This document shows positions 1 through 50,291 of a stretch of 53,720 nt of DNA, piece by piece. Position 1 is the stretch's first letter. The number at the start of each line of letters is the position of its first letter. Both the position numbers and the translations under genes were made by a program. This DNA comes from a virus. Taxonomy: Duplodnaviria > Caudoviricetes. The stretch covers positions 1-53,720 of the IMG/VR virus record IMGVR_UViG_3300025809_000027; one strand, 5' to 3'. The notes below the pieces were generated by a model. It was not told the DNA's origin. It did no database searches and worked only from the letters and a program-made list of their open reading frames with translations.

Positions 1-48
1 AACAAAATAATATTTACATTAATTTACTAATAATCTCGTTTTATTTTG

Positions 49-56
49 TATATTTG
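49..56 (+). promoter_or_regulatory. Bacteroidetes -7 promoter element (TATATTTG) upstream of the HTH gene
   Basis: Matches TAnnTTTG 18 nt before ATG 75; also present in the second copy. Confidence 0.55.
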
Positions 57-74
57 CTTAAAATAAAGATATAA

Positions 75-344
75 ATGAGCTTATTAAGGTTAAATGAGAT
101 ATTAGATAAAGATTATACAGGCAGGGCATTGGCTAAAGAATTAGGGGTTACACCTAATACTGTGAGTAATTGGGTTAAAGGTTATTCTACGCCAAGCGGT
201 GACGACTTACTGAGAATCGCCAAAGTCCTAGACGTGGATGTAAGAGAGCTGTTCCACTCCACGAAAACAAAGGAAGCAGATGAGATTTTGAAACAAGCAA
301 TAAATGACCTGCAAGTGGTTTACTCTAAGATTAAAAAATATTGA
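75..344 (+). CDS. XRE/Cro-CI family HTH transcriptional regulator
   Basis: ALAKELGVTPNTVSNWVKG...LLRIAKVLDV is a classic HTH_3 pattern. Confidence 0.9.
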   Translation: MSLLRLNEILDKDYTGRALAKELGVTPNTVSNWVKGYSTPSGDDLLRIAKVLDVDVRELFHSTKTKEADEILKQAINDLQVVYSKIKKY

Positions 345-367
345 ATAACGTGATTAAAGAAATAACC

Positions 368-488
368 TAACGGTTTGTATATGAAATGTGCGACATTGAA
401 ATAAGAACTAACTAAATAAAAATACATTAATTATGAAATTAAAAATAGAAATCACAAAAAAGGAAAAGCATTTTTTATATACTTTGTT
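368..488. repeat. attC-like hairpin site A
   Basis: TAAC-GGTTT-GTATATGAAATGTGC ... GCATTTTTTATATAC-TTT-GTT; the loop contains ATG 433. Confidence 0.75.
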
Positions 489-648
489 ATGCTTTGTTTT
501 TTTAATATTAAACATGGCTTGCGGTATAATGATAGGTGTGGAAATATTTAAAGACACCAATAGCTTCGGATATAACGCAACCTTAGTATATACAGCTTTA
601 AGTTGCTTTTTCTATTATTATGTAATGTTTCAGCGAAATAAAGCATAA
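433..648 (+). CDS. Small two-TM membrane protein (cassette cargo)
   Basis: Two hydrophobic stretches; its stop TAA is the TAA of the TAAC in site B. Confidence 0.7.
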   Translation: MKLKIEITKKEKHFLYTLLCFVFLILNMACGIMIGVEIFKDTNSFGYNATLVYTALSCFFYYYVMFQRNKA

Positions 649-770
649 CGTTTATGGTATGGTGACGTTGCGACCTTACAGCATGGACTTAATTAATAAA
701 CATAAAACTTTGAGATATGAATAAAGACAATAAGAAAACAGAAACCGAGCAATGCACTATACCAAGTGTT
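646..770. repeat. attC-like hairpin site B
   Basis: TAAC-GTTTA-TGGTATGGTGACGTTGC ... GCAATGCACTATACCA-AGT-GTT; the loop contains ATG 717. Confidence 0.8.
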
Positions 771-998
771 AGCAGTAGTATTTCTCTATGGATGGAAGGA
801 TTCTCTGCTACAGGACAAAGACAAGGTGCAAGTATGATAGGAACTTACCAAGCGAAAAACCTTGATGATGCGGTTAAACAGTATATGGAAACCCATAAGG
901 GCGATGTTGATTGGGATAGGTTTGGCAGAGGCAGACACGCTATTTGGGCTTGTGAAATATTTGATAATGAAAAAGAAGCCCGTAAATCGTTTGGCTAA
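717..998 (+). CDS. Hypothetical protein (cassette cargo)
   Basis: 93 aa ORF; residues EQCTIPSVSSS are encoded by the right arm of site B. Confidence 0.75.
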   Translation: MNKDNKKTETEQCTIPSVSSSISLWMEGFSATGQRQGASMIGTYQAKNLDDAVKQYMETHKGDVDWDRFGRGRHAIWACEIFDNEKEARKSFG

Positions 999-1007
999 TA
1001 TTACTGC

Positions 1008-1046
1008 TAACTACCGTATATGCGTACTAAAAAGTGTCTTAACGGG
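1008..1046. other. Array-terminal half site (putative attI-like landing site)
   Basis: TAACTACCGTATA occurs four times; 1006-1046 is identical to 11596-11636. Confidence 0.6.
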
Positions 1047-1082
1047 CATATATGTCGGGATAATACAACTTTTACAGTATAT

Positions 1083-2222
1083 TTAAAAATCAGGACTCTG
1101 ATCTATAATCATCTTCCGATTCACTTCTTTAACAACAGTCGCATAACGCTTTGTCATCAATTCAGATTGATGCCCGTACAAGTCCCTCAGAGCTTCCAAA
1201 TCAATACCTGCCAAAATTTTCGCATTAGCTCCTGTATGTTTCATGGCGTATAAATTCACATTAATTCCTAAGTCTTTTTTTACCAGAGCATTCCAATTAC
1301 GATTAGAAGTATCACGCTTTAACATTCCAGAAGCAGGCAAAAACTCAATTCTATTACGCCCACGCTTTCCAGTTGGAATGCGTCCAAACAAATAAAAGTC
1401 TTCTGGATATTGACTTAAATCCATAGATTCAAACTCCTTCAGTAAATGGTGATTGATTGGAACTACTCTTTGTTTTTTACGTCCCTTCGTAATGTGAGCA
1501 GGCATTACAATAGTTTGGTTTTGAAGATCAATCATTCCCACTCTTAGCCGTGTCAACTCAACTGGTCTTATTCCTGTATGGAAAAGCGTCACCACAAATC
1601 TGTAAAATCCTAAATGTTTTTTTTGAAGGTGTTTTTTGATTCTCGTTATTTCGTTTGGAGTTGCTGGACGGTTGGCGGTGCTTTCTTGTTCTGGTAGTCT
1701 TTTGATTTTAAAACAAGGGTTGTTTTCAAGTAAATCCCACTGCATAAGCTCCGTGAAGATTGCAGACAAATACCCCAGATTCTTGTTGTAAGCTTTGCTA
1801 GACCAGTTCCTATCTTTTTTCATGCGCTCCATTACGAGCTTCACATGAAGCCGTCTAACGTCTTTAATATAAAGATTTGAAAGTCTTATGTCTTTGATGG
1901 CTTGAATTACAAAGCCTAAAGCATTACTATAATCGTGGAATGTTTTCTTTGCAATAAACTCTTTCTTTTTTTCTAAAGCGAAATTCAGAGCATCGATTAA
2001 AGTGTAATTAACTTCGGTCATGGGATTGTCGCTCGACCATCCAGAGGCTATATTTTTTTTAAAAGATTTAAGAAGTACGTTAGCGGCTGCCTGACGTTTT
2101 TTAAGGTTCTTAATCCTATTAAGGTTCCCTGTAAAGCGTCTTTGCTTCCCGTTAATTGAGAAGTAAACATACCATCTCGAAGATGATTTGCATAATTTCG
2201 GTGTTGTGATGTTTTGACTCAT
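1083..2222 (-). CDS. int: Phage tyrosine integrase 1
   Basis: TGIRPVEL (R), YAMKHTG, LYGHQS...RYA (H, Y) motifs; adjacent to an att region. Confidence 0.92.
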   Translation of the reverse strand: MSQNITTPKLCKSSSRWYVYFSINGKQRRFTGNLNRIKNLKKRQAAANVLLKSFKKNIASGWSSDNPMTEVNYTLIDALNFALEKKKEFIAKKTFHDYSNALGFVIQAIKDIRLSNLYIKDVRRLHVKLVMERMKKDRNWSSKAYNKNLGYLSAIFTELMQWDLLENNPCFKIKRLPEQESTANRPATPNEITRIKKHLQKKHLGFYRFVVTLFHTGIRPVELTRLRVGMIDLQNQTIVMPAHITKGRKKQRVVPINHHLLKEFESMDLSQYPEDFYLFGRIPTGKRGRNRIEFLPASGMLKRDTSNRNWNALVKKDLGINVNLYAMKHTGANAKILAGIDLEALRDLYGHQSELMTKRYATVVKEVNRKMIIDQSPDF

Positions 2223-2262
2223 TTAAATTAAATTAAATGCCTACAAGCGTGTCAATCATCAT

Positions 2263-2469
2263 AACCGTACATATTATGTACAGTTTGGATATAAACCCCT
2301 GATAAACAGGGGTGTATAAACCAAAGCGGAGAGTAAGGGAGTGTCTTTTTTAGAAACTCAAAAACTCAACTGATTGAATTGCAATGTTTTACATTTTGCG
2401 TTAGTATTCGTTTTTTGCTATTTTTGGCGTAATTATGTACAGTTTTTATGTACAGTTTTTATGTACCAG
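2263..2469. other. attP-like region 1: core 2326-2340 flanked by TTATGTACAGTTT arm-type repeats
   Basis: Arm repeats at 2263-2273 (inverted), 2274-2286, 2433-2445, 2446-2458 and 2459-2469 lie on both sides of a tRNA-like core. Confidence 0.75.
2326..2340 (-). other. tRNA 3'-end fragment (tRNA-Ser-like), att core; not a full tRNA
   Basis: The reverse complement TCCCTTACTCTCCGC fits a T-stem 3' strand, acceptor 3' strand and G discriminator. Confidence 0.6.
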
Positions 2470-2471
2470 AT

Positions 2472-2597
2472 TTAAACCATTTTTTTAATTAATGGAATAC
2501 CTTCTTTTAATCCACCAATGGTTATATCCAAGTCTTCAATACGACATCTTAGCTTATCGATTGCTTCGATTAACTCGTTTAATTTTTCTTCATTCAT
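2472..2597 (-). CDS. 41 aa hypothetical protein (not in the ORF track)
   Basis: MNEEKLNELIEAIDKLRCRIEDLDITIGGLKEGIPLIKKMV; preceded by the shared AAAACCCTACTTATT leader. Confidence 0.55.
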   Translation of the reverse strand: MNEEKLNELIEAIDKLRCRIEDLDITIGGLKEGIPLIKKMV

Positions 2598-2657
2598 AAT
2601 AAGTAGGGTTTTAAGGGTTTTTAATTTAGGTTTATGTAGTTATTAAATTTTTTAAGA

Positions 2658-2825
2658 TTAATCTAGCTGACTAGCAATTGCAATCAAAGATCCAATAACA
2701 GAAAGCCAACAAACTATTTGCACCCACGTACTTGTAATAGATGCTGATTTTGATGCTGATTTTAGGTAGCGATAGATTCCTTCCTGTAATTCTCTATCGG
2801 AGAGTTCGGGTATTTTCTTTGTCAT
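2658..2825 (-). CDS. 55 aa protein with a C-terminal TM helix (not in the ORF track)
   Basis: MTKKIPELSDRELQEGIYRYLKSASKSASITSTWVQIVCWLSVIGSLIAIASQLD; has the shared leader. Confidence 0.6.
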   Translation of the reverse strand: MTKKIPELSDRELQEGIYRYLKSASKSASITSTWVQIVCWLSVIGSLIAIASQLD

Positions 2826-2877
2826 AATAGTAGGTTTTAGGTTTATGGTTTAGTTTAAATAGATCGGGGCAAGATTC

Positions 2878-2906
2878 TAAAGTGGTCAAATTCGACCACT
2901 TTAAAA
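2878..2906. repeat. Near-perfect palindrome TAAAGTGGTCAAATTCGACCACTTTAAAA, copy 1
   Basis: Identical 29-mer at 12740-12768. Confidence 0.8.
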
Positions 2907-2919
2907 TCTATGTATGATA

Positions 2920-3402
2920 TTAAAGACAGTAAGTTTTATAACTAACTATTCCAGAAGACGCAATATTAATTTTTCTTGCATAAGTTTTAAAGGTAAAACT
3001 ATAGATGTTTCCATCATAAAGATTTTCTATATAAGCAAATACGCTCCTGTCATAATCATAATTAGTTATCAATTTTACAAATTCATTTTTCTTCACAATA
3101 TCAATAATACCATTTTCTATGTAATGAAACCTCCAAGACTTATCTTTTTGGCTATTTTTCTCTCGGGTGATTAATTCACCTGTATTTCCTTCTTTTGTTT
3201 TTAGGATGTTATTCCCATTGACATCTCTAAAGTAAATACCTAATGTTTTGTTGTTTAAAACGATTGTTACAATTAAAGGGTGCTTGTCTTTATTTAAGTC
3301 TAAGTAATTGCCTTCAGTTTTGTAAATATGTTGTTTTGAGTTGGTTTTTTTTTCGTCTTGATCTGTTAGACTGGTTTCAGTCCATTCGTTTAAATTAATC
3401 AT
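2920..3402 (-). CDS. Hypothetical accessory protein in the immunity region
   Basis: 160 aa ORF co-oriented with the repressor and integrase. Confidence 0.7.
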   Translation of the reverse strand: MINLNEWTETSLTDQDEKKTNSKQHIYKTEGNYLDLNKDKHPLIVTIVLNNKTLGIYFRDVNGNNILKTKEGNTGELITREKNSQKDKSWRFHYIENGIIDIVKKNEFVKLITNYDYDRSVFAYIENLYDGNIYSFTFKTYARKINIASSGIVSYKTYCL

Positions 3403-3423
3403 AATAAGTAGGTTTTAAGGGTT

Positions 3424-3801
3424 TTAAATTATAGGGATTATTAAGTTTTTGTTTTTATCTAGTCTAAGTTCCATGATGCTGAGTCGTGCTTCTTGACCTT
3501 TAATAAGTTGTTCTAAAAGCTCAACTCTTTTTAATAGTAAACTATCAATAGGCGTTTCTTTTGGTTTAACAAGCATCGTTCCTTTGCCTGTTAGAATCCA
3601 TTCATAACTGATCTCGGGGTATCTGTTTGTTATTTTTCTAGCAAGTCCTGCTGAAATTCCATTGCGACCGTTTATGACGTTATCTATCATTGTGCCACTT
3701 GTGTGTCCTATTGACATACCAAAAGCCCTTCTACTCAATTTAGCATGAGATATAATGGCTAGCATTATTTCTGGGAAACTTTTTTCTTCTTGATTTTTCA
3801 T
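3424..3801 (-). CDS. CI-like phage repressor (HTH, no S24 peptidase domain)
   Basis: HTH followed by YPEISYEWILTGKG, typical of Bacteroidetes prophage repressors; divergent from the early operon. Confidence 0.8.
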   Translation of the reverse strand: MKNQEEKSFPEIMLAIISHAKLSRRAFGMSIGHTSGTMIDNVINGRNGISAGLARKITNRYPEISYEWILTGKGTMLVKPKETPIDSLLLKRVELLEQLIKGQEARLSIMELRLDKNKNLIIPII

Positions 3802-3957
3802 TTTTTAAATTTGTTTAAGTTATTGATAAACAGGGGTTTATTAATCCTTTAACAAAATTTTATATTTTTTTTAACAAATTAGTTTGTCAAAAGATGTTAT
3901 TTGATGTTATTAATTGTTACATTTGTAATGTAAAACTTTTATAACCGTAAATATAAC
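3802..3957. promoter_or_regulatory. Divergent lysis/lysogeny switch region with TAACA/TGTTA repeats and a TACATTTG -7 box
   Basis: TTTAACAAA twice, GATGTTATT twice, TACATTTG at 3918-3925. Confidence 0.6.
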
Positions 3958-4290
3958 ATGAAAACCGAGACCTACAATAAAATTTTAGAAAAAATCAAGT
4001 GCGACGAGTCAACCGAACAGTTAATCGGATTTAACGGCAGTTTAGGGAGTTATGAAATTAATTTCTATGCAGAACAAGAAAACGGATACAAGCTTCAGGT
4101 TGATTCTTTCGGATATAAATCTAAAAGCGGTTGGATTCAGCAAGAACCAACAACCGAGCAAATAGAGCTTATGGAAAAGAAAATTCAAAACGCAGTTGAC
4201 TGCATCCAAAGTGAACCAAAAGAATTAGAGTCTACAAGCCTTAGAAATCTTTACCAAGAAAACGGAGTATCACCACTAATGTTTATTTAA
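3958..4290 (+). CDS. Hypothetical early protein
   Basis: First ORF of the rightward operon. Confidence 0.7.
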   Translation: MKTETYNKILEKIKCDESTEQLIGFNGSLGSYEINFYAEQENGYKLQVDSFGYKSKSGWIQQEPTTEQIELMEKKIQNAVDCIQSEPKELESTSLRNLYQENGVSPLMFI

Positions 4291-4301
4291 AAAATTTAAC
4301 A

Positions 4302-4586
4302 ATGCCACAAATCGGAGAACCAATTACCAAAGAGCAAAAAGACCTTTTGAATAGGCTTTTAACAACCCAAGACTTAATAGACGTGTCTACAACTGTTGAT
4401 GCCAGCTACTCAACAGTCAAGAGTCTATTTTACCGCACAGCATCTGTTACGGAAGAAAACCAACAAGCCGTTTATAAAATGATTAGCCGTGCTTTTCAGA
4501 AAGCAGAAGAATCTCTAGTGTATTTCACTAAAGCAAAATCTGAATTAGAAGCTATGCTTCCAAAGGTTCAAAACAAAACAGCATAA
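4302..4586 (+). CDS. Possible Cro-like HTH protein
   Basis: Helical pattern DLIDVSTTVDASYSTVKSLF and position near the switch. Confidence 0.45.
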   Translation: MPQIGEPITKEQKDLLNRLLTTQDLIDVSTTVDASYSTVKSLFYRTASVTEENQQAVYKMISRAFQKAEESLVYFTKAKSELEAMLPKVQNKTA

Positions 4587-4595
4587 CCAAACGGT

Positions 4596-4850
4596 ATGAC
4601 CGACACCATAACCATACCGACAGAATTACTAAAAGATATAGTTGATGTAAACAATCGACTAGTCGAACATTACAACCGCCTACAAGCGTGTTCAAATCGA
4701 AGTCCCGAAGTTAAGGGGTCGGGAACTTCACTTAAGGGGGGTAAGGATAGACCAAGCCTCCCTTCTAAAAAAGTAATCCTTGAAAACAGAACTAAAAAAT
4801 ACGTAGAAAAAAAACTAAAAGAAATTCAATCTAAAAGAAATTCAATCTAA
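4596..4850 (+). CDS. Hypothetical protein
   Basis: ORF in operon; its 3' end lies within the tandem repeat. Confidence 0.6.
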   Translation: MTDTITIPTELLKDIVDVNNRLVEHYNRLQACSNRSPEVKGSGTSLKGGKDRPSLPSKKVILENRTKKYVEKKLKEIQSKRNSI

Positions 4851-4894
4851 AAGAAATTCAATCTAAAAGAAATTCAATCTAAAAGAAATTCAAT
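4815..4894 (+). repeat. Perfect tandem repeat, 5 x CTAAAAGAAATTCAAT (16 bp)
   Basis: Counted directly. Confidence 0.95.
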
Positions 4895-4920
4895 TATGAA
4901 CCCAAAAAAACCCAACAATT

Positions 4921-5346
4921 ATGAATCCAGAAATTAAACAAAAACTAGAAGAATTAACTGATTTAATATTGAAATCCACCAAAGGAGATCAAAACAATGT
5001 AGATGCTACAATCAAAGGAAATCAATACAATCAAGGTGTTACAATCGGAGGATGGCAAGACAATGTAGATGCTACAATCAAAGGAATTCAAGACAATGTA
5101 GGTGCTACAATCGAAGGAAGTCAAAACAATCAAGGTGTTACAATCGGAGGATGGCAAGACAATGTAGATGCTACAATCAAAGAAAGTCAAGACAATAGAA
5201 GCGCTACAATCAAAGGAAGTCAAAACAATCAAGGTGCTACAATCGAAGGAAAAATGATTATAGATTCCAAAACAAATTTTAAAAAAGGTATTTGGAAAGT
5301 TGAAAAAACAGGGTTGGTTGAATATGAATTAACTCCTAAAAAATAA
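4921..5346 (+). CDS. Protein with 8 x 11-aa repeats (probable beta-solenoid)
   Basis: GxQxNxxATI[KEG] repeated eight times. Confidence 0.75.
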   Translation: MNPEIKQKLEELTDLILKSTKGDQNNVDATIKGNQYNQGVTIGGWQDNVDATIKGIQDNVGATIEGSQNNQGVTIGGWQDNVDATIKESQDNRSATIKGSQNNQGATIEGKMIIDSKTNFKKGIWKVEKTGLVEYELTPKK

Positions 5347-5351
5347 ACATT

Positions 5352-5702
5352 ATGAACCCAACAACCCAACTTAAACCAATCACCGCAGAAGGTGAGAAAG
5401 AATTTCTAACTGAATTAAGCCTTTCAGATGTGTATGTAAGCACAGAAGACAGGCGAGCAACTGTAACAACATTATGGCGGTATGACATCGAGCGAAAGTC
5501 AAAGTACATAAATTTCAATGTTTACACCAAACAGGCTAGAATCACCCTTTACAATGACGAAGGCAAAGAGCTAGGTGTCTATGATACTCTTGTGAATGAC
5601 GAATGGACTGTTGAAGACAAGGGAATTAATTTAAACGACACAATAATCCCTCAATATGCAGAGGTGGACTTAGAAGATAAATCAATAATCATTAACTGGT
5701 AA
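5352..5702 (+). CDS. Hypothetical protein
   Basis: ORF in operon. Confidence 0.7.
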   Translation: MNPTTQLKPITAEGEKEFLTELSLSDVYVSTEDRRATVTTLWRYDIERKSKYINFNVYTKQARITLYNDEGKELGVYDTLVNDEWTVEDKGINLNDTIIPQYAEVDLEDKSIIINW

Positions 5703-5763
5703 CTTAACTAACCAACCCCACTAATTAAGAAAATCAACAAAAACTTAAATAAACCCAACAATT

Positions 5764-6282
5764 ATGAACCCAACAATTCATTATTTAAAAGCTCGTAACA
5801 GCGACTTCCTTGCTAGTACAGACTTAGAAGTCTTTGAGCTTGAAGGAAAATCAAAAATATTAACAGTTAAAAACGTTGAGTACAAGGAAAATTTCAAGGT
5901 CAACGGAAGGATCAAACCCAAAGGCGTGGTGATGTACTTTGAAGAGATTTATGCAAAACCTTTAATCGTGAACACAACCAATTCCACTTTAATAAAAGAA
6001 GCGACAGGTGTTATTGACGCTAAAAAATGGATAGGTTTTTCGGTAGAATTTAGATTTGATGATAAAGTAGAAATGAAAATCAGCAAAACCGAAACCAGAA
6101 AGGGCGGCATTAGAATTAAGAGTGTAAACACAAACGGACTTGCAGCCCCTTTAACAGACGTTAAAACACGAATAGATCAATGTACCAAGAAAGTTGAAGT
6201 CATGGCTATATGGCAAGAATTAACGGAGCAGGAACAAGCCCAGCATAAGCTTCAGATTTCTGAAAAACATAAAACACTTTAA
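5764..6282 (+). CDS. Phage protein, possibly ssDNA annealing/binding partner of the exonuclease
   Basis: KPLIVNTTN...KWIG motif; lies directly upstream of the exonuclease and SSB-like genes. Confidence 0.45.
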   Translation: MNPTIHYLKARNSDFLASTDLEVFELEGKSKILTVKNVEYKENFKVNGRIKPKGVVMYFEEIYAKPLIVNTTNSTLIKEATGVIDAKKWIGFSVEFRFDDKVEMKISKTETRKGGIRIKSVNTNGLAAPLTDVKTRIDQCTKKVEVMAIWQELTEQEQAQHKLQISEKHKTL

Positions 6283-6284
6283 TT

Positions 6285-7196
6285 ATGGATTTTTCAAACT
6301 ACCTGTTTCGAGCCCACATGGTTGGCAAGATTATAACCGTGCCCAAGCCACTAACCGAAAACCAAACAAAGACCTTAGAGTCTTTTAAATTAAAGGGATA
6401 CCCAAATATAACGGACAAACAAAAAGAAACCTTTGTAAGCCTTGAAAACAAGCTGATTGAAAGTAAGAAATTCAAACTTACAGATGCGAACAAAAAGACA
6501 TTATCGGGATTAGTTTACGCTACAAAATACGGTAGAAGGACTGAAATAAATTCTGATAAAATAACCAAAGGTTTGACCGTTGAAAAGGACTGTCGAGACA
6601 TTCTGTCGAGAGTTTCAAATTTGTTCTTGACTCACTCGACTGAAAGGAAAACAAATGAATGGGTGAGTGGTGCAATTGACATGGAGCCAAGCGAAGTAAT
6701 TGTAGATATAAAGTCCTCGTGGAGTTGGGAATCATACTCTAAAATACTTGAAGATAGCGCAAATGAAATCTATCTAAGACAACTAGATTCATACATGGAT
6801 TTATGGGCTAAAAAAGATTCTTTGCTTTGCCATATACTAACAGACACGCCTTTTAAATTGGTAGAAAAAGAAATAAAAAGCCTTGACTACAAGTACAACA
6901 TTCTAAACATGGAAGGTGATGTAAGAGACGAAAACATTGAAGATGTTGTAAAGGTCGTTACAAATCATATTTTTTCAAGAAAAGGTTTGGAGGAATTCTG
7001 TCAGCACTCAACCAACGTGCATATTGAATGGTTCAAGGACTTTATCGAAATCCCAGAACAGGACAGGGTTCACATGATACCACACGCTTACGACCAAGAA
7101 AGGATTGAGCAAAGAAACAAAAGCATAATCCTTTCACGAGAGTACATGAACACAGTAAAATCAATCAATAATTTTAATCCTAAATTAATCAAATAA
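6285..7196 (+). CDS. YqaJ/lambda-exo-like PD-(D/E)XK exonuclease
   Basis: KGLTVE...SGAID...IVDIKSSW...YLRQLDSYM motifs. Confidence 0.75.
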   Translation: MDFSNYLFRAHMVGKIITVPKPLTENQTKTLESFKLKGYPNITDKQKETFVSLENKLIESKKFKLTDANKKTLSGLVYATKYGRRTEINSDKITKGLTVEKDCRDILSRVSNLFLTHSTERKTNEWVSGAIDMEPSEVIVDIKSSWSWESYSKILEDSANEIYLRQLDSYMDLWAKKDSLLCHILTDTPFKLVEKEIKSLDYKYNILNMEGDVRDENIEDVVKVVTNHIFSRKGLEEFCQHSTNVHIEWFKDFIEIPEQDRVHMIPHAYDQERIEQRNKSIILSREYMNTVKSINNFNPKLIK

Positions 7197-7198
7197 CA

Positions 7199-7564
7199 AT
7201 GAAAATACAAGGCAAAGTAAAAGTAATCGGACAAGTACAAGAAATCGGATCAAAAGGATTCAAGAAACGTGAGTTAGTTATAACCGTTCCAGACGAGAAA
7301 TACCCTCAACACATTCTGGTGGAGTTTATTCAAGACAAAACAAGTCTTCTAAACGATATAATCGTTGGTCAAAACATAACCGTACACATCAACATCAACG
7401 GTCGAGAATGGATCAACCCACAAGGCGAAGCGAAGTATTTTAATGCGATTCAAGGATGGAAAATAGAAATAGACCCAAAGTCTGAGATTCCTGAAGCACC
7501 ATTTGAAGCTGCAACAGATTTGACAGTAGGCGAGCCAAACGATTTACCATTTTATAACCTATGA
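7199..7564 (+). CDS. DUF3127 family OB-fold protein (SSB-like)
   Basis: GFKKRELVI...YPQHILVEFIQDK...NINGREW...YFNAIQGWKI with an acidic DLPF tail. Confidence 0.85.
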   Translation: MKIQGKVKVIGQVQEIGSKGFKKRELVITVPDEKYPQHILVEFIQDKTSLLNDIIVGQNITVHININGREWINPQGEAKYFNAIQGWKIEIDPKSEIPEAPFEAATDLTVGEPNDLPFYNL

Positions 7565-8043
7565 AGACACTTCATTTAACTTTAAAAAAACAATGGTTCG
7601 ACATGACTAAATCAGGTATAAAAACCGAAGATTATAGAGATGTTAATAAGTATTGGTTTAAGAGACTTATTTTTAAATGGCGTGATGTGATGCTTTTTCA
7701 CGGATATAACGATCTAACTGACGAAATCGCTATATATATTATTGAAAACTCCAAGATGTATGGGTTTAAGCCTTTTAAAAGTAACATAATGACTTTGGGC
7801 TATGCAAAAAAAGGAGACAAAGAAAGGACTTTAGAATTAGAGCATAAGGGCATTGAAGTAGGGACAGGCAACCCTGAATGGGGCGCAGAGCCAAACAAGA
7901 TGTACTTTGTTATCAAGCACGGGAAAATAATAAACACGGACTTGCAAGAAGCAATTAAAAAAGCCAAACCAAATTTGGATAAAATAAAAGATGTTGACAA
8001 GCATCTTGATGAAATTAGAAACAGTAGAATAAAAACAATTTAA
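7561..8043 (+). CDS. ASCH domain protein
   Basis: TLHLTLKKQWFDMTKSGIKTEDYR is the ASCH GxKxxExR signature. Confidence 0.8.
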   Translation: MKTLHLTLKKQWFDMTKSGIKTEDYRDVNKYWFKRLIFKWRDVMLFHGYNDLTDEIAIYIIENSKMYGFKPFKSNIMTLGYAKKGDKERTLELEHKGIEVGTGNPEWGAEPNKMYFVIKHGKIINTDLQEAIKKAKPNLDKIKDVDKHLDEIRNSRIKTI

Positions 8044-8054
8044 AACCTAATCCT

Positions 8055-8378
8055 ATGCAAGCAGAAATCGACTTTACACACCAAAGAGACTTATCAAGAG
8101 GTAGGCATAATGAGAACTCAATAATTGCTCATGAACGATTAAAGCCGTTTAAAGAAACTATGAGAAAACAAGTAGAACAATGTGTAGATGGGCATAGATG
8201 TACACTGGAGATTGCTGAGATGTTAGATAAACATCTCCATAAAATAAGCGGTCGATTCACTGCTTTAAAAGCGTCAGGAGTTATCGAGCAAACGGGACGT
8301 AAAAAATATAAAGGAAGTACATATACAATATATAGTAAAGCAAACACCAGTAGATACTTGCTGTTGGGGCAGGAGTGA
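8055..8378 (+). CDS. Winged-helix DNA-binding protein
   Basis: TLEIAEML...ISGRFTALKASGVIEQTGRK. Confidence 0.65.
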   Translation: MQAEIDFTHQRDLSRGRHNENSIIAHERLKPFKETMRKQVEQCVDGHRCTLEIAEMLDKHLHKISGRFTALKASGVIEQTGRKKYKGSTYTIYSKANTSRYLLLGQE

Positions 8379-8445
8379 AAAATAGGTAAAGTTGGTTTTT
8401 TGGTCTCAAGGTACAGGTTATAGCCTCCCTGTACCGTGCCAAAAA

Positions 8446-8635
8446 TAACGTTACTTGTGTATGATTAGTAGCGAATTATTAAAACTAAAACTTATAAAAA
8501 TGAAAGAAATAAACACACAAATTATCCAAACAGGATTTACACTTGATAGATTGCACCAAGATGGCAAAATAGACAATGAAGCCTACACAATTTTAAAAAA
8601 TAGGAATAAACAAGCTATTAATTATACACGTTGTT
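8446..8635. repeat. attC-like hairpin site C (long loop)
   Basis: TAAC-GTTACTT-GTGTATGATTAGTAGC ... GCTATTAATTATACAC-GTT-GTT; the loop contains ATG 8500. Confidence 0.8.
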
Positions 8636-8799
8636 CTGAGCTTTTGATTTGCCTTGACAATGGTAATTATGAAATGCTAACAAACTATAAATTATACAAG
8701 TTAGTTTCTGAAAGTAAAGGTTATTATAATCTATATGATGATGATGGAAAATTAGTTCAAATGAGCAAAGTTCGCTTCAAAAAAGTAGTGGCAAATTAA
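8500..8799 (+). CDS. Hypothetical protein (cassette cargo); ATG 8500 preferred over GTG 8455
   Basis: A-rich leader before ATG 8500; QAINYTRCS is encoded by the hairpin arm. Confidence 0.7.
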   Translation: MKEINTQIIQTGFTLDRLHQDGKIDNEAYTILKNRNKQAINYTRCSELLICLDNGNYEMLTNYKLYKLVSESKGYYNLYDDDGKLVQMSKVRFKKVVAN

Positions 8800-8807
8800 T
8801 TACTTAG

Positions 8808-8851
8808 AACACCCGTATAAAAGCCGTTTCAATGGCGGTTTATACTAAGTT
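8808..8851. repeat. Short attC-like hairpin site D
   Basis: AAC-ACCC-GTATAAAAGCCGTT-TC-AATGGCGGTTTATAC-TAA-GTT with an extra G in the 3' arm; its reverse complement resembles site H. Confidence 0.8.
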
Positions 8852-8963
8852 ATTTTTTTAATAGAACAAAACATGAAAAAACTAAAAGTATTAATAATAT
8901 TCCTGTTTGGCGAAAGAGTCAAAAGCAAAAGAAAATTTTGGAATCCAGAAATAAAAGGAACTA

Positions 8964-9185
8964 GTGGATGATGTCTTAATAGTCCCTGAGCTTATTAAAT
9001 CATCAAAAGGCAATAGGTACTATATTTTTCGACCCAATGGACAAGAAGTAGCGATAGAGATTAAAAATAATATTCTAGACCCTCAATTCCCTCTCACTCA
9101 AATTGAAAGAGAATTTATTTACAGAAATATACAACCGTTTAAAACGAACAACCCTGAATTATTAAAGATTAAAATAAATGGCTAA
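8964..9185 (+). CDS. Hypothetical protein
   Basis: ORF overlapping the start of the replication gene. Confidence 0.55.
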   Translation: MDDVLIVPELIKSSKGNRYYIFRPNGQEVAIEIKNNILDPQFPLTQIEREFIYRNIQPFKTNNPELLKIKING

Positions 9186-9930
9186 CCGATTAACAAGTAC
9201 CGACAAATATGCAGATTCGTGGTTTATTGAATTAGAAACGATAGAGAAGCTTGTGTTTTATTACTTAATTGACCACGTAGATAATGCAGGCTTTTATGAA
9301 ATATCGATAAGACACATACAATTTCACTTAGGAATTAGTAAGGATGAAATTTTAAGGGCTATAAAGGGGCTGTGTAGGGGTTTATTAGGGGCTGATTCTG
9401 AAATTAAAAACGGAGATAAAATATTTTTAAAGAATTTCTTAAAACACCAGAAGATGCAACCTTTAAACCCTTTTAACTCTTTTCATTCCAATGCTTTAAA
9501 GTCTTTTGAGTTGAATATTGATTTTGTAAATAAACACCCTTTTATTCAAAAATTAAAGGTTTACGGTGAAAAAAAATTAGATGGAAAAGTTGTAAAAACA
9601 ATAGATACAAATTTAATTAATTACATAAATAAAAAACAGGGGCTAGAAAGCCCCTTAGTAGAAGTAGAAGTAAAAGTAGAAGTAGAAGTAAAGGATATTC
9701 CAAATAAAAAAGAGTTTTTAGAATTTGCAAAATTGAAAATTGAAAATATCGACTTGGAAGATGTGGGATTGAAATACGAAGCATGGAAATCTAGTGATTG
9801 GCATACAGGCGGTGAAAAACCTCGAAAGATTAAGAATTGGAAAACAACGCTGTTAAATACTCTGCCGCATTTAAAAAAAACAACCGTAAAAAAAACAGGA
9901 AAACTTAACGCATATAACCCGAACAAATGA
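9178..9930 (+). CDS. Phage replication initiator
   Basis: N-terminal wHTH-like region (DSWFIEL...YLIDHVDNAG), low-complexity linker, C-terminal KIKNWK motif; internal iterons; followed by a loader ATPase. Confidence 0.75.
   Translation: MANRLTSTDKYADSWFIELETIEKLVFYYLIDHVDNAGFYEISIRHIQFHLGISKDEILRAIKGLCRGLLGADSEIKNGDKIFLKNFLKHQKMQPLNPFNSFHSNALKSFELNIDFVNKHPFIQKLKVYGEKKLDGKVVKTIDTNLINYINKKQGLESPLVEVEVKVEVEVKDIPNKKEFLEFAKLKIENIDLEDVGLKYEAWKSSDWHTGGEKPRKIKNWKTTLLNTLPHLKKTTVKKTGKLNAYNPNK
9354..9655. promoter_or_regulatory. Putative replication origin iterons
   Basis: Four AGGGGCT-like repeats at an 11-bp period (9354-9393) and an inverted pair AGGGGCT-AGAA-AGCCCCT (9638-9655). Confidence 0.65.
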
Positions 9931-10682
9931 TTTCAACTAGAAAATACAGACTGATGAAGCGGTTCAGAGGAACGCTGACAACTGAGCAAGAAAGCCAAAT
10001 ATCTGAGTATGAAAATTCTACCCTGTCCGTAAAATTCAGCGAACCAGAACCAGAGGAAATACCCCTCACGAGACTGCCATTCGACTGGTTACAAAGAATG
10101 TTTATGAAGTGTTGGAAAATCAACGAAGGAAAAGATTTAATCTTCACAGAATCTACGAAACCAATCTACAGGGCTTTGACTCAGTATTTCGCAAGGAGTG
10201 AAAATTTTACAAACACGAATATTACCACAAATATACCCGAGCTTAAAAAAGGGCTTTTAATTATTGGCGATTATGGATGCGGCAAAACATCAATGCTAAG
10301 AGCTTTTCAAATGGTGGGTAAGGCACTGCTGCCAGATCCTATACTTTGGTTTAATAGCGTGTCCTGTAATGCCTTAGTAATGGAGTTTGAGGGCATGGAC
10401 ACAAAAGATAAATCAGCAAAGAAACATTTCTTTCAAAAATACAACAAAGCTGCTGTAATGTATTTTGATGATTTCGGCACAGAATCCAATGCTTCAAATT
10501 TTGGAATTAAAAACTTAATGAAAGACATTCTGGAAGAAAGGTATGCGAATAATAAGCGAACATTTTTGACAAGTAATTTATCACTACCAGAAATTCAAGA
10601 AAAGTACGGAGACAGAGTGTATGACCGACTTCAAGAAATGTTTAACATAATTCAAATGTCTGGGGATAGCTTCAGACGTTAG
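9927..10682 (+). CDS. DnaC/IstB-like AAA+ helicase loader
   Basis: Walker A GDYGCGKT, Walker B YFDDFGTE, TSNL, YGDRVYDRL. Confidence 0.85.
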   Translation: MISTRKYRLMKRFRGTLTTEQESQISEYENSTLSVKFSEPEPEEIPLTRLPFDWLQRMFMKCWKINEGKDLIFTESTKPIYRALTQYFARSENFTNTNITTNIPELKKGLLIIGDYGCGKTSMLRAFQMVGKALLPDPILWFNSVSCNALVMEFEGMDTKDKSAKKHFFQKYNKAAVMYFDDFGTESNASNFGIKNLMKDILEERYANNKRTFLTSNLSLPEIQEKYGDRVYDRLQEMFNIIQMSGDSFRR

Positions 10683-10704
10683 ACAAAGCAAAACAAGAAC
10701 TAAA

Positions 10705-11028
10705 ATGAGCCTAGAAAAAATAACACCAAAAAACACGGAGTACGCAAAGCAGACTTTAAGAAATAGAGGTGATATGTTTAGCGTCTATATTTTAAAGCTA
10801 ATAGAAAGCTTTGAAAACTCGAAAGACAACCCGATCAAAGACAATCGAATAGTGAGCGACCGAACGTTTGCATATCGTTTAAAGTCTCATCTGAAAGATG
10901 TTAGAGCGGAATGTCAGATGGGACAGGAGGAACTCGAATATCTTACAGGGGTTGCAGACAGGCTCTTAGAATATCAAAAACAAACAATGCCAGACGATGA
11001 GAAATGGTTTTTTAAGAATCTTCAGTAA
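10705..11028 (+). CDS. Hypothetical protein
   Basis: ORF whose stop codon is the TAA of site E. Confidence 0.7.
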   Translation: MSLEKITPKNTEYAKQTLRNRGDMFSVYILKLIESFENSKDNPIKDNRIVSDRTFAYRLKSHLKDVRAECQMGQEELEYLTGVADRLLEYQKQTMPDDEKWFFKNLQ

Positions 11029-11116
11029 CGGGTTTGGCTATGATTATGTAGCCTTGAAACACAGAACTTTGAATTAAATATAAACTTTAATAAGGGTATT
11101 AATTATAGCCCTTGTT
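11026..11116. repeat. attC-like hairpin site E
   Basis: TAAC-GGGTTT-GGCTATGATTATGTAGCC ... GGGTATTAATTATAGCC-CTT-GTT. Confidence 0.8.
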
Positions 11117-11132
11117 AGCAACTTTTAAAATT

Positions 11133-11276
11133 ATGGATTATACAATAACTTATACTTATAAAGACAAAGAAGACACTATACTATTACAAGATACGCAAAA
11201 CATACTCGGAGCAATAGGGCAATTTTACGAAGACCATGTTAGAGAATGTAGAATAATAAAGATTGAAGAATACTAG
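11133..11276 (+). CDS. 47 aa cassette cargo protein (not in the ORF track)
   Basis: MDYTITYTYKDKEDTILLQDTQNILGAIGQFYEDHVRECRIIKIEEY fills the space between sites E and F. Confidence 0.65.
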   Translation: MDYTITYTYKDKEDTILLQDTQNILGAIGQFYEDHVRECRIIKIEEY

Positions 11277-11295
11277 TAATTTTTATTGTGGGTAA

Positions 11296-11480
11296 AACGG
11301 TTTGTGTATGGGTAGGTTTTTGACTTTGAATAATGAACTAAATTGATAGATATGGTACAAGAAATAGAAATGACAAAAGAAGAGCAAATGACAATGTATA
11401 TGAAATGCTCGAAAAAAGAACTGTGTGAAATGCTGATTGAAGCAAATAGGCACTTAAAAAACTTACCTATACACGTTGTT
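11296..11480. repeat. attC-like hairpin site F (long loop)
   Basis: AAC-GGTTT-GTGTATGGGTAGGTTTTT ... AAAAACTTACCTATACAC-GTT-GTT; the loop contains ATG 11352. Confidence 0.8.
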
Positions 11481-11600
11481 ACCCAACAAAGTGAACTGGT
11501 TTGTGATTGTTTGCCAATGAGTACGCAAGTAAGCACTATAAATGGTAGATACATTTGCTGTACTTGTAATAAACCACTCTTATCACAAACTTGTGGCTAA
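11352..11600 (+). CDS. Small Cys-rich (Zn-binding?) cassette cargo protein
   Basis: CDC...CCTC; the stop TAA overlaps the terminal half site. Confidence 0.65.
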   Translation: MVQEIEMTKEEQMTMYMKCSKKELCEMLIEANRHLKNLPIHVVTQQSELVCDCLPMSTQVSTINGRYICCTCNKPLLSQTCG

Positions 11601-11636
11601 CTACCGTATATGCGTACTAAAAAGTGTCTTAACGGG
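11598..11636. other. Array-terminal half site, second copy
   Basis: Identical to 1008-1046. Confidence 0.6.
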
Positions 11637-11752
11637 ATTGTATAAGGAACGTTGCGTTTAGGAAACCAAAAATTAACGATTAGAAATAAAGAAAATTAAT
11701 ATTAACAGACCTTTGGTATAGCACAAATTAGCAATGTTTTTTATACGGTGTT
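11630..11752. repeat. attC-like hairpin site G
   Basis: TAAC-GGGATT-GTATAAGGAACGTTGC ... GCAATGTTTTTTATAC-GGT-GTT. Confidence 0.8.
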
Positions 11753-11803: not shown

Positions 11804-12730
11804 ATGGAATTTAAAAAATACCAACATTTAGAGAGATTTGGAACTACAGAAGTTCAAAATATTGTATTAGGGAGAACACATATATTCCCAAAAATTGACG
11901 GAACAAATGCAAGTGTTTGGATTAATGACAAAGGAGAAATACAAGCAGGAAGCAGAAAAAGACATTTAACTTTAGACGCTGATAATGCAGGTTTTTACGC
12001 TTGGGTTAAAGAACAAAATAATTTATTAAAATACTTAACAGAAAATCCAACACATAGACTTTATGGCGAATGGCTTGTACCACATTCTCTTAAAACCTAT
12101 AAAAAAGATGCGTGGCGAAACTTCTACATTTTTGATGTAGCTATTGACAAAGAAGAGTCTGAAATAACACACGAAGGCGATGATAAAATTAAATATTTAC
12201 CTTATGATGAATACAAACCACGACTTGAAGAAAAAGGTTTGAATTTCATTGCACCAATTAGTATAATTACAAATGCAAGTTATGAGCAATTAGTAAATCA
12301 ATTAATGAAAAACGTTTTTTTAATTGAAGATGGTAAAGGAGTTGGAGAAGGTATTGTGATTAAAAACTATGACTTTAAAAATAAATACGGAAGAAATACA
12401 TTTGCTAAAATTGTAACCTCTGAATTTAAAGAAAAACACTCTAAAGTTATGGGTGCCTCTGAAATTAAAGGTAAAAAGATGGTTGAAGAAGAGATTGCGA
12501 AAGAGTTTGTTACAACCGCTTTAGTTGATAAGGTTTACGCTAAAATTGAAAATGAAAGTGGTTTTAATAGTAGAGCAATACCAAGATTATTAAATACTGT
12601 TTTTTATGATGTAGTAAAAGAAGACGCTTGGAACTTTGTTAAGAAGCACAAAAACCCAAGTATAAATTTTAAAACATTACAACACTTTGTTTTTGTAGAA
12701 GTAAAAGAGAAAGCACCGCAATTATTTTAA
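11804..12730 (+). CDS. ATP-dependent RNA ligase (Rnl2-like nucleotidyltransferase)
   Basis: Motif I PKIDGTN, III YGEW, IIIa FDV, IV EGIVIK, V AKIVTSEFKE. Confidence 0.85.
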   Translation: MEFKKYQHLERFGTTEVQNIVLGRTHIFPKIDGTNASVWINDKGEIQAGSRKRHLTLDADNAGFYAWVKEQNNLLKYLTENPTHRLYGEWLVPHSLKTYKKDAWRNFYIFDVAIDKEESEITHEGDDKIKYLPYDEYKPRLEEKGLNFIAPISIITNASYEQLVNQLMKNVFLIEDGKGVGEGIVIKNYDFKNKYGRNTFAKIVTSEFKEKHSKVMGASEIKGKKMVEEEIAKEFVTTALVDKVYAKIENESGFNSRAIPRLLNTVFYDVVKEDAWNFVKKHKNPSINFKTLQHFVFVEVKEKAPQLF

Positions 12731-13117: not shown

Positions 13118-13130
13118 TAACTACCGTATA
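13118..13130. other. Array-terminal half site TAACTACCGTATA, third copy
   Basis: Exact 13-mer. Confidence 0.55.
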
Positions 13131-13225
13131 AAAGAGTAAAAATCTTTAAATAATATTCAAAAAAACATCTTATTTATTGGTAATTCCATAAAAGCATTAA
13201 AATACTAAAGTTTTTTCAAATAAAA

Positions 13226-19641: not shown

Positions 19642-19707
19642 AAAATGAATACTTACAAAAGGCTATATTTTTGGGTCAATTAAGTATAATTTTTAAAAAA
19701 AGATAAG

Positions 19708-48142: not shown

Positions 48143-48373
48143 CTACTTAGGTAAGTGTAAATCATAATCACCATTACATCTATTGCACTTTACTTCATTG
48201 TATTTAAGTTCGTTCCATCTACACGTAGTACAATCAACAACAACAGGTGTATTTAATACAGGTTCAGTTCTTTTTGCCCTGCGCTCGTTTAACCATTTAG
48301 CTAGGGTTTCTTTTGTTTCTTTTGCAAATACTTCATCTACTTGCTTTGCTAATTTTTTTAAGTTTATGTTCAT
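48143..48373 (-). CDS. Small Zn-finger protein (cassette cargo)
   Basis: CTTC...CNRC; PVLNTPVVVD is encoded by a hairpin arm. Confidence 0.65.
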   Translation of the reverse strand: MNINLKKLAKQVDEVFAKETKETLAKWLNERRAKRTEPVLNTPVVVDCTTCRWNELKYNEVKCNRCNGDYDLHLPK

Positions 48374-48387
48374 TGTATTTATCCGTT
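48239..48387. repeat. Decayed attC-like site I
   Basis: AAC-AAC-AGGTGTATTTAATACA ... TGTATTTATCC-GTT; one arm mostly deleted. Confidence 0.5.
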
Positions 48388-48529
48388 AAAAAATAATAAA
48401 AAAGGCTACTAATAATTCAATTACACAAGCCCAAGCGATTATTTTGAGAAATATATCTATAATATCAGGTTTTCCTAAATTCTTTAAGAATAAATACTGA
48501 AGTATGGTTAAAAATTCTTTTGTTTTCAT
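48386..48529 (-). CDS. 47 aa TM microprotein (not in the ORF track)
   Basis: MKTKEFLTIL...IAWACVIELLVAFFIIF; the stop TAA is part of the TAAC of site I. Confidence 0.5.
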   Translation of the reverse strand: MKTKEFLTILQYLFLKNLGKPDIIDIFLKIIAWACVIELLVAFFIIF

Positions 48530-50232: not shown

Positions 50233-50291
50233 TAACGGACTTGGGTATGAATAAGCGATAGCGACCCGTAGGGTTATTTATACCCTGTGTT
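50233..50291. repeat. attC-like hairpin site J
   Basis: TAAC-GGACTT-GGGTATGAATAAGC ... GTTATTTATACCC-TGT-GTT. Confidence 0.8.

What the first reader, a model, noticed from the sequence alone, without database searches (positions are those of the whole stretch)
368..11600. Cassette genes start inside the recombination hairpin and run antisense to normal integron orientation
Seen: start codons at 433, 717, 8500, 11352 and 48373 lie in the hairpin loop, so the 3' arm is also protein-coding (HFLYTLL, EQCTIPSVSSS, QAINYTRCS, KNLPIHVVTQ, PVLNTPVVVD). Sites C and F span about 185-190 bp, longer than typical attC sites. Inference: because the ORF crosses the GTT end, the crossover must be at the AAC end. 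Each mobile unit is then hairpin plus downstream gene, the reverse of the canonical ORF-then-attC layout. Each cassette would bring its own translation start and join a phage operon in the sense direction.
Basis: partly seen in the sequence, partly recalled or inferred. Interest (0 to 1): 0.85.

Follow-up and report, generated by a model that had tools for sequence, protein, structure and literature searches.

The report
Phage integron cassettes with reversed genes
This marine flavobacterial phage carries integron-type recombination hairpins of the kind found in its hosts' chromosomes, but its genes run the opposite way through them and often begin inside the hairpin, so each mobile unit is hairpin plus downstream gene.

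Summary
The hairpins are real. The + strand has 5 sites scoring at least 32, against 0.25 expected from shuffles. Arm pairing covaries: 14 of 19 pairs change on both sides. The fifth, at 48373, is not a hairpin (arm score 13).

The sites belong to a family that also forms arrays beside IntI/Xer-like recombinase genes in Bacteroidota chromosomes. Two conserved G.T wobbles mark one strand.
- In bacterial arrays the genes lie opposite that strand in 55 of 56 intervals.
- In phage records they lie on it in 21 of 21 intervals.
- Frames opening at an ATG inside the hairpin occur at 20 of 36 phage sites and 5 of 76 bacterial sites.

Near-identical Polaribacter phage isolates (Freya_2 to Freya_10; P12002L and P12002S) differ by whole units cut at the coding-strand AAC. 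Contigs from two metagenome runs skip 8450-8807.

One caveat remains. The same loop-encoded N-terminus occurs with many different gene bodies, and the same body with several N-termini. Exchange near GTT must therefore also happen.

Phage attC clusters are already published (Qi 2023). The reversed polarity and the coding attC are not.

The parts
369..488 (+). Site A: attC-like hairpin. ATG 433 lies in the loop and the 3' arm encodes HFLYTLL. ORF 433-648.
   Evidence: Sequence. Generic arm score is only 26. R1 gives 78.7 bits, but A is a training member. The ORF's own flanks 486-499 and 636-649 are 93% complementary.
647..770 (+). Site B: attC-like hairpin. ATG 717 lies in the loop. ORF 717-998.
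   Evidence: Score 33. 83% identical to Freya_2 to Freya_10, exactly from AAC to GTT+9. Flanks 768-782 and 997-1011 are 93% complementary. Homology of the gene body in L003 starts only at residue 26.
1009..1047 (+). Array-terminal half site AAC|TACCGTATATGCG..., lying 72 nt from the stop of integrase 1 (1083-2222, minus strand).
   Evidence: Direct repeat family D8, with copies at 11596 and 50737. It is the best complement of site B's post-GTT flank, 14 of 15.
8447..8635 (+). Site C: 189-nt hairpin. ORF 8500-8799 begins in the loop, and 45 of its 99 residues are encoded by the hairpin.
   Evidence: Score 35. The N-terminal 45 aa recur in 19 of 23 other aligned proteins, joined to unrelated C-termini. 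Differences are biased to the third codon position. Contigs in runs X1 and X3 skip 8450-8807.
8808..8825 (+). Terminal half site AAC|ACCCGTATAAAAG that closes unit C.
   Evidence: Sequence. It is the right edge of the joint found.
11027..11116 (+). Site D: 90-nt hairpin. ORF 11134-11276 starts after GTT.
   Evidence: Score 32. 72-76% identical to hairpins in Cellulophaga phages phi13:2 and phi17:1.
11296..11480 (+). ORF 11352-11600 begins in the loop.
   Evidence: Score 40, above the highest of 24 shuffles. The 42-aa N-module is joined to many different bodies, and the body is found with 5 other N-modules.
11599..11633 (+). Second copy of the terminal half site. Its inner AAC (11631-11633) opens site F.
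   Evidence: 94% identical to 1006-1053.
11631..11752 (+). Site F: 122-nt hairpin with a non-coding loop. The RNA ligase gene 11804-12730 follows it.
   Evidence: Score 37. 63-70% identical over its whole length to bacterial array hairpins in L100 and L086. The ligase matches Pfam PF09414.
13119..13134 (+). Terminal half site AAC|TACCGTATAAAAG after the ligase block.
   Evidence: Sequence.
50234..50291 (+). Site H: 58-nt hairpin in the second phage copy. ORF 50327-50728 starts after GTT. Its terminal half site is at 50740.
   Evidence: Sequence. R1 gives 45.8 bits, but H is a training member.
48143..48388 (-). The ORF is real as an open frame, but no hairpin is supported.
   Evidence: Best arm score 13. 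R1 does not find it.

Best explanation
These are integron-type attC recombination sites of a family specific to Bacteroidota, sitting in a temperate flavobacterial phage as three or four short arrays with no integron integrase of their own (CALIN-like).

The strand that folds is the one carrying two conserved G.T wobbles. In host chromosomes that strand is the non-coding one, so the layout is gene then attC. In the phages it is the coding strand.

Exchange happens at the AAC at the 5' end of the folded strand, as in ordinary integrons. A phage unit therefore reads: hairpin interior, GTT, cargo, AAC. The gene may start in the loop, read through the 3' arm, or lie entirely inside the loop. Arrays end in a half site, AAC|WACCNTATA, which plays the part of attI.

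Shown here: the family, the covariation, the strand bias, the reversed polarity, and the AAC-bounded differences between natural isolates.

Inferred: the enzyme is an IntI/Xer-like tyrosine recombinase. For this window it would be supplied by the host. In Freya the phage encodes a homologue beside its array. Also inferred: the substrate is single-stranded DNA, and the loop ATGs are the true starts.
For: Family and structure:
- 94.4% of cells pair, against 71.6% when shuffled (0 of 500 shuffles reach it).
- 14 of 19 pairs show compensatory change. Slid controls pair at 29-51%.

Strand: 54 G.T against 4 A.C.

Host counterpart:
Of the 80 listed titles, 72 name Bacteroidota taxa. There are up to 7 sites per 8 kb.
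- Arrays lie beside an IntI/Xer-like gene in 5 of 7 fetched regions. In the other 2 the gene sits at a contig end.
- That recombinase scores 224 bits on NF040815 (cut-off 220) and 211 bits on TIGR02249 (cut-off 265).
- The Freya recombinase is 33% identical to it, E 4e-39.

Polarity: 55 of 56 bacterial intervals against 21 of 21 phage intervals.

Units:
- Freya and P12002 differences are bounded by AAC.
- There is a joint 8449>8808 in two runs from different studies.
- The 12 nt after GTT find their best complement just before a downstream AAC in 13 of 27 sites, each reached by at most 7 of 200 nulls. The site's own 5' flank matches only 4-10 of 15.

Coding:
- 20 of 36 phage sites against 5 of 76 bacterial sites.
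- The C-type N-module also occurs in a gene that has no hairpin arms (L016, L018).
- Differences by codon position are 6, 4, 13 for the window against L018.

Published: IntI1 recombined one P12002L attC (PMC9892861, section 3.4 read). Cleavage falls in the AAC of the folded bottom strand (PMC5027507, Introduction part 1 of 2 read).
Against: - The window has no IntI-like gene. Integrases 1 and 2 score 48 and 46 bits on TIGR02249, and tblastn with the Freya recombinase finds nothing.
- No canonical extrahelical bases were seen. The spacer is 5-7 nt on one arm and 3 nt on the other, whereas PMC5027507 gives 5-6 on each arm.
- The same gene body occurs with different loop-encoded N-termini: P0002-P0004 for C, and P0033, P0035, P0036, P0040 and P0055 for E. 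AAC-only exchange cannot make these.
- One P12002 junction lies 11 nt inside the arm, which looks like homologous exchange.
- The joint keeps both AAC triplets (it skips 358 nt, not 361), and the letters between are unknown.
- Sites for the alignment were chosen by arm pairing, so the percentage paired is inflated.
- No start codon has been measured.
Confidence: 0.72

Rival explanations
1. Ordinary cassette layout. The crossover is at G|TT on the coding strand, each hairpin belongs to the gene upstream of it, and the loop ATGs are miscalled starts or accidental fusions.
For: - N-module and body chimeras join exactly at the 3' arm/GTT.
- ORF B has an in-frame ATG at 795, and its L003 homologue aligns only from residue 26.
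- Qi et al. sequenced G|TT junctions. Which strand that was relative to the genes is unknown.
Against: - No break at GTT between near-identical genomes: 0 of 6 P12002 junctions, and none of the Freya junctions seen.
- Arrays start with a hairpin and end with a half site.
- Polarity is opposite to the bacterial arrays.
- Read-through frames are enriched: 20 of 36 against 5 of 76.
- Freya gp77 has no other in-frame ATG before its last codons.
Confidence: 0.08
2. Homology-driven shuffling. The conserved arms act only as short homologies for phage recombinases such as RecT, as proposed for the promoter-stem-loop cassettes of T4-type phages. No site-specific enzyme is involved.
For: - Breaks are seen on both arms over evolutionary time.
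- One P12002 junction lies 11 nt inside the arm.
- Freya encodes RecT.
- The window and P12002L have no IntI-like gene.
Against: - The overlap is only 3 nt, exactly at AAC, in genomes that are otherwise 100% identical.
- Homology alone does not need covarying hairpin arms or conserved wobbles.
- The same family sits beside a dedicated recombinase in bacteria and in Freya.
Confidence: 0.12
3. The hairpins act mainly in RNA, as processing, termination or translation-control structures. The modular look would be a by-product.
For: In phages the G.U-capable strand is the mRNA strand, and start codons sit in loops.
Against: - In bacterial arrays the wobble strand is antisense to the genes in 55 of 56 intervals, so the wobble is a property of a DNA strand.
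- Indels bounded by AAC are DNA events.
- Single folds are not unusually stable.
Confidence: 0.05

Closest known systems
Clusters of attC sites without integrase (CALINs) in phage genomes: Qi et al. 2023, PMC9892861. I read section 3.4 and passages on P12002L.
   Same: attC-like hairpins in virulent and temperate phages, including Polaribacter phage P12002L. My scan finds at least 10 sites of this family there. One site was recombined by IntI1.
   Different: They report 2 sites in P12002L, with 'divergent directions'. The main text does not mention reversed gene polarity, genes starting inside attC, unit-level differences between isolates, or the link to Bacteroidota chromosomal arrays.
Sedentary chromosomal integrons with uniform attC sites, as described in PMC5027507 (Introduction part 1 of 2 read).
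   Same: AAC/GTT R box, an L box with covariation, an unpaired spacer, a variable loop, exchange at the AAC of the folded strand, and similar attC sites joined to unrelated cargo.
   Different: Genes lie on the folding strand and overlap the site. Two conserved G.T wobbles replace bulged extrahelical bases. The spacer is asymmetric. Some sites are 185-189 nt, against the published 57-141. Whole genes can sit in the loop (Freya gp78, and gp8 with gp9).
Inverted-integrase integrons, where intI points the same way as the cassettes. Recalled from memory, not seen in any call.
   Same: The Bacteroidota arrays found here have the recombinase gene upstream of, and co-directional with, the cassette genes.
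   Different: The recombinase stays below the integron-integrase cut-off (211 against 265 bits) and matches the model in two stretches.
Promoter-stem-loop mobile cassettes of T4-type phages. Recalled (Arbiol et al. 2010), not seen in any call.
   Same: Small accessory genes in plastic phage regions, flanked by repeated stem-loops and differing between relatives.
   Different: Here the stems covary, the ends are AAC/GTT, breaks are precise to 0-3 nt, and a recombinase-linked bacterial counterpart exists.
Xer recombination of folded single-stranded phage DNA. PMC5027507 states that XerC/D are the only other tyrosine recombinases using both single- and double-stranded substrates.
   Same: A host tyrosine recombinase acting on a hairpin in phage DNA is a plausible way for a phage to do without its own enzyme.
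   Different: That system integrates a whole phage genome. It does not build cassette arrays.

Membership tests
integron attC site | Imperfect hairpin closed by AAC and GTT (R box) | tested here: met
   23 of 23 aligned sites. My scan required AAC and GTT, so this is partly by construction. The BLAST-defined conserved blocks also start at AAC (-2 to +8).
integron attC site | L box pairing kept by structure rather than by sequence | tested here: met
   14 of 16 L-helix pairs change on both sides. 93.3% of cells pair.
integron attC site | Unpaired central spacer of 5-6 nt on each arm | tested here: inconclusive
   A spacer is present, but it is 5-7 nt after AAC and 3 nt before GTT.
integron attC site | Two or three extrahelical bases near L'' | tested here: not met
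   There are no consistent bulges. Instead there are two conserved G.T wobbles, four pairs apart (22 of 23 and 20 of 23 sites).
integron attC site | Length 57-141 bp | tested here: inconclusive
   A, B, D, F and H are 58-124 nt. C and E are 189 and 185 nt. A class of 179-189 nt also exists in the bacterial arrays.
integron attC site | Recombined by an integron integrase at AA|C of the folded bottom strand | not testable with these tools
   Natural differences are bounded by AAC. IntI1 activity on one P12002L site is published.
complete integron | An intI gene passing the integron-integrase model, next to the array | tested here: not met
   Window integrases score 48 and 46 bits against a cut-off of 265. 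The host-array recombinase scores 211 bits, also below the cut-off.
CALIN (cluster of attC sites lacking integrase) | At least two attC sites close together with no intI | tested here: met
   A and B lie within 400 nt. D, E and F lie within 730 nt.
canonical cassette layout | Gene on the strand opposite the recombined strand, with the attC downstream of the gene | tested here: not met
   Phage records: 21 of 21 intervals have the gene on the G.T strand. Bacterial arrays: 55 of 56 are opposite.

The most novel reading that the evidence does not exclude
Flavobacterial phages run their own version of the integron. The recombination site doubles as a coding exon, so site-specific exchange joins interchangeable N-terminal modules (21-45 aa, encoded by the attC loop and 3' arm) in frame to many different protein bodies. 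This is a prokaryotic form of exon shuffling. It draws on a large and scarcely described pool of Bacteroidota integrons whose recombinase escapes the standard integron-integrase model.
Probability: 0.35. Interest if true: 0.9.

Novelty: new variant of a known kind. Interest (0 to 1): 0.78.

Why it matters
Integrons are taken to hold promoterless genes in one fixed orientation, and how cassettes arise is an open question. Here the same attC family is used in both polarities, one in bacteria and the other in their phages. In the phages the site itself is translated.

- This gives a natural system for asking how strand choice is set and how genes become joined to attC sites.
- It also allows asking whether phages trade accessory or counter-defence genes, such as the RNA ligase here and the methyltransferases of P12002L, by site-specific recombination.
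- It shows that standard tools undercount integrons in Bacteroidota. IntegronFinder 2.0 reported one complete integron in Bacteroidetes proper (passage read in PMC9024848).
- The Freya isolates offer a culturable test bed.

Tried and rejected
- Folding single hairpins gave no significant energies. The evidence comes from covariation, not stability.
- Covariance model R1 recovers only sites with loops near the training length. It misses C and E. Its extra hits at 9351-9486 (E 0.01), 48077-48144 (E 0.25) and 28907-29040 (E 0.34) were not pursued.
- ORF C found no relative in viral contigs. Alignment A1 found only 3 viral and 2 metagenome loci, too few for a linkage census.
- The ligase homologue in Cellulophaga phage phi19:3 has no such hairpins on either side, so it says nothing about which hairpin travels with the gene.
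- tblastn with the Freya and phi13:2 recombinases against the window found nothing. Pfam on 10 early genes showed no further recombinase.
- In read laying, only the joint 8449>8808 was usable. The joints 340>11589, 10983>11121 and 11137>11733 have unknown letters between their sides and sides of 21-24 nt. The first reflects the window's second copy. All runs were contigs, so no circles, starts or strands could be seen.
- I noticed a loop motif, ACTTTGAAT, in B, D and E and wondered whether it is a promoter. I did not test it.
- I did not fetch the end of the Freya_8 record, so its left junction is inferred from where the record starts.
- Literature searches found no paper in the held library describing reversed polarity, coding attC sites or Flavobacteriaceae integron arrays. 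Subscription journals and all supplements are outside what I could see. Qi et al.'s Tables S1-S3 and Bartlau et al.'s SI files may bear on this.

Full report
**What the window is**

The contig is the whole record, and a tool describes it as a virus record. Its two ends are related but not identical. Positions 1-340 match 49384-49723 at 95%, and 1005-1181 match 50736-50912 at 87%. The record therefore holds a little more than one unit of two related temperate phages. The two tyrosine integrases differ: 1083-2222 and 50917-52122, both on the minus strand and both matching Pfam PF00589. The nearest named relatives are phages of Polaribacter, Cellulophaga and Tenacibaculum.

**Checking the observation**

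On the + strand there are imperfect hairpins that open with AAC and close with GTT.

| Site | Coordinates | Span (nt) |
|---|---|---|
| A | 369-488 | 120 |
| B | 647-770 | 124 |
| C | 8447-8635 | 189 |
| D | 11027-11116 | 90 |
| F | 11631-11752 | 122 |
| H | 50234-50291 | 58 |

- A scan of every AAC..GTT pair for arm pairing gives E 40, F 37, C 35, B 33 and D 32.
- In 24 dinucleotide shuffles the mean was 0.25 sites at 32 or above, and no score exceeded 34.
- A and H score 26, which is background. I accept them on family sequence only.
- The fifth site (48373, minus strand) has a best arm score of 13 and is not a hairpin.
- Folding energies of single sites are not unusual.

**A family with covarying arms and a marked strand**

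The same kind of site occurs, always in the direction of the genes, in Freya_10, phi13:2, P12002L, phi17:1, Gundel_1 and a metagenomic contig.

- In an alignment of 23 sites, 94.4% of cells pair, against 71.6% after shuffling (0 of 500 shuffles reach it).
- 14 of 19 pairs show changes on both sides. Sliding the partners drops pairing to 29-51%.
- The sites were picked by arm pairing, so the percentage paired is inflated. The compensatory changes are not.
- Two pairs are conserved as G.T, in 22 of 23 and 20 of 23 sites.
- With scoring that treats both strands alike, the 17 best sites hold 54 G.T and 4 A.C on the coding strand.

**Cassette signature**

The 12 nt after GTT find their best complement just before a downstream AAC. 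This holds in 13 of 27 sites, each reached by at most 7 of 200 shuffled controls. By eye, 12 of those 13 AACs open the next hairpin or a half site. The site's own 5' flank matches only 4-10 of 15.

Arrays end in AAC followed by a half site:
- TACCGTATA at 1012, 11602, 13122 and 50743.
- ACCCGTATA at 8811.
- Related forms in phi17:1 and Freya.

**Where exchange happens**

Freya isolates are otherwise identical and differ by whole units.
- Freya_9 is Freya_10 without 3794-4100, with a 3-nt AAC overlap.
- Freya_2 is Freya_10 without 1-4097.
- The Freya_8 record starts at Freya_10 903, directly after an AAC.
- Freya_5 has only unit 1. Freya_6 has a further 472-nt unit.
- Every block begins with a hairpin interior and ends ...AAC.
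- Genes can sit wholly in the loop (gp78; gp8 with gp9; the ORF of the Freya_6 unit), across the 3' arm, or after GTT.

P12002L and P12002S are 99.6-99.9% identical in their shared blocks. They break at AAC+0, +0, +0 (as TAAC), +1 and +2, and once at AAC+11. They never break at GTT.

In the window itself, contigs of two metagenome runs from different studies join 8449 to 8808, skipping unit C. The join keeps both AAC triplets, and the letters between are not known.

**The bacterial counterpart**

Of the 80 listed titles, 72 name Bacteroidota taxa, and some loci have up to 7 sites in 8 kb.

- All 5 genomes I examined have a 378-408-aa tyrosine recombinase matching the integron-integrase model in two parts.
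- In 5 of 7 fetched regions an array lies directly downstream of that gene. In the other 2 the gene is at a contig end.
- One such protein scores 224 bits on NF040815 (cut-off 220) and 211 bits on TIGR02249 (cut-off 265).
- The array ends next to it as ...GCTAAC|GTGTTATATAAAAA.
- The 271-aa Freya recombinase lies 47 nt downstream of the end of its array. It is 33% identical to the bacterial protein (E 4e-39).
- The window's integrases are only distantly related.
- Site F matches bacterial hairpins over its full length. Only the arms of C match.

**Reversed polarity**

I oriented each array by its G.T strand and asked which strand holds the longest open frame between hairpins.
- Bacterial arrays: the opposite strand in 55 of 56 intervals.
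- Phage records: the G.T strand in 21 of 21 intervals.

A frame open from an ATG inside the hairpin, through GTT and at least 30 codons beyond, occurs at 20 of 36 phage sites and 5 of 76 bacterial sites.

Published work places cleavage in the AAC of the folded bottom strand (PMC5027507, Introduction part 1 of 2 read).

**Are the loop ATGs real starts?**

- For C, the first 45 residues recur at 75-95% identity in 19 of 23 other aligned proteins, joined to unrelated C-termini.
- The first 39 residues also occur in a gene without hairpin arms.
- Differences favour the third codon position: 6, 4, 13.
- For E, the same modular pattern holds.
- For B, Freya gp77 shares the 21-aa leader joined to a different body, and it has no other usable in-frame ATG. 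B shows no codon-position bias (3, 4, 3).
- None of these starts has been measured.

**What does not fit**

- The body of ORF C occurs with three other N-modules, and the body of ORF E with five. The join is at the 3' arm/GTT.
- BLAST blocks shared between phages are mostly the hairpin alone, running from AAC to GTT+9..47.
- Some exchange or cassette building near GTT must therefore occur, though none is seen between near-identical genomes.
- It could come from rare recombination of the other strand, from homologous exchange in the arms, or from repeated joining of attC sites to genes.
- The sites also lack bulged bases and have an asymmetric spacer.

**Comparison with what is known**

Qi et al. 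2023 reported attC clusters in phages, including two sites in P12002L, one of which was recombined by IntI1. Their main text notes 'divergent directions' but not the points made here. Bartlau et al. 2021 describe Freya genomes of 44.0-48.9 kb without mentioning cassettes or hairpins (term search). IntegronFinder 2.0 reports a single complete integron in Bacteroidetes proper (passage).

I file the window's sites as attC-like sites in CALIN-type arrays, a new variant of a known kind.

**Verdict**

Interest is high for specialists in integrons and phage evolution.

Noticed in passing
L149 458-10604; also L150, L153, L154, L155, L065, L051: Bacteroidota chromosomes carry arrays of 120-190-nt attC-like hairpins directly downstream of a 378-408-aa IntI/Xer-like recombinase gene that points the same way as the cassette genes. 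The recombinase stays below the integron-integrase cut-off, so standard tools may miss these integrons.
   Followed up: partly
window 1-3663 and 49384-53720: The contig ends are related but not identical (87-97% in patches). They hold different cassettes between the HTH gene and the half site, and unrelated integrases. This is either two phage variants in tandem or a chimeric wrap-around assembly.
   Followed up: partly
window 11804-12730: The RNA ligase gene is 85% identical in DNA to that of Cellulophaga phage phi19:3, exactly from start to stop, with unrelated flanks. This looks like a recent transfer of the bare gene.
   Followed up: partly
window 8500-8616; L016 1489-1605; L018 3001-3117: A conserved 39-45-aa N-terminal module (MxExxxQLIQTGFTLDRLHQDGKI...) is found both inside hairpins and in a gene without hairpin arms. 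Its function is unknown.
   Followed up: partly
window 8822-8842 (+) and 48095-48118 (-): A nearly identical short palindrome (GCCGTTTyAATGGCGGTTTA) follows two unit ends. It may be a terminator or a binding site.
   Followed up: no
window 4812-4908 and 4949-5278: There are tandem repeats of 16 nt (four or more copies) and of 33 nt (seven copies inside ORF 4921-5346). Metagenome contigs show length variants here (joints 4830>4906 and 4978>5076/5208).
   Followed up: no
window 19602-19645, 28235-28278, 40607-40661: Repeated CGTGCT(T/A)... arrays ending in CGTGCTACTTAAAAA stand ahead of three late gene blocks. They are candidate regulator binding sites.
   Followed up: no
window 9451-9900: Summed contig depth is very high in two metagenome runs (1395 and 5138, against about 5-50 elsewhere), with GAAGTAGAAGTAGA-type loose ends. 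This is probably a low-complexity repeat shared with other organisms.
   Followed up: no
L004 4147-4962: The Freya 'integrase' is a 271-aa Xer/IntI-like protein. It lacks the roughly 100 N-terminal residues of the bacterial array recombinase, and it lies 47 nt downstream of the array's terminal half site.
   Followed up: partly
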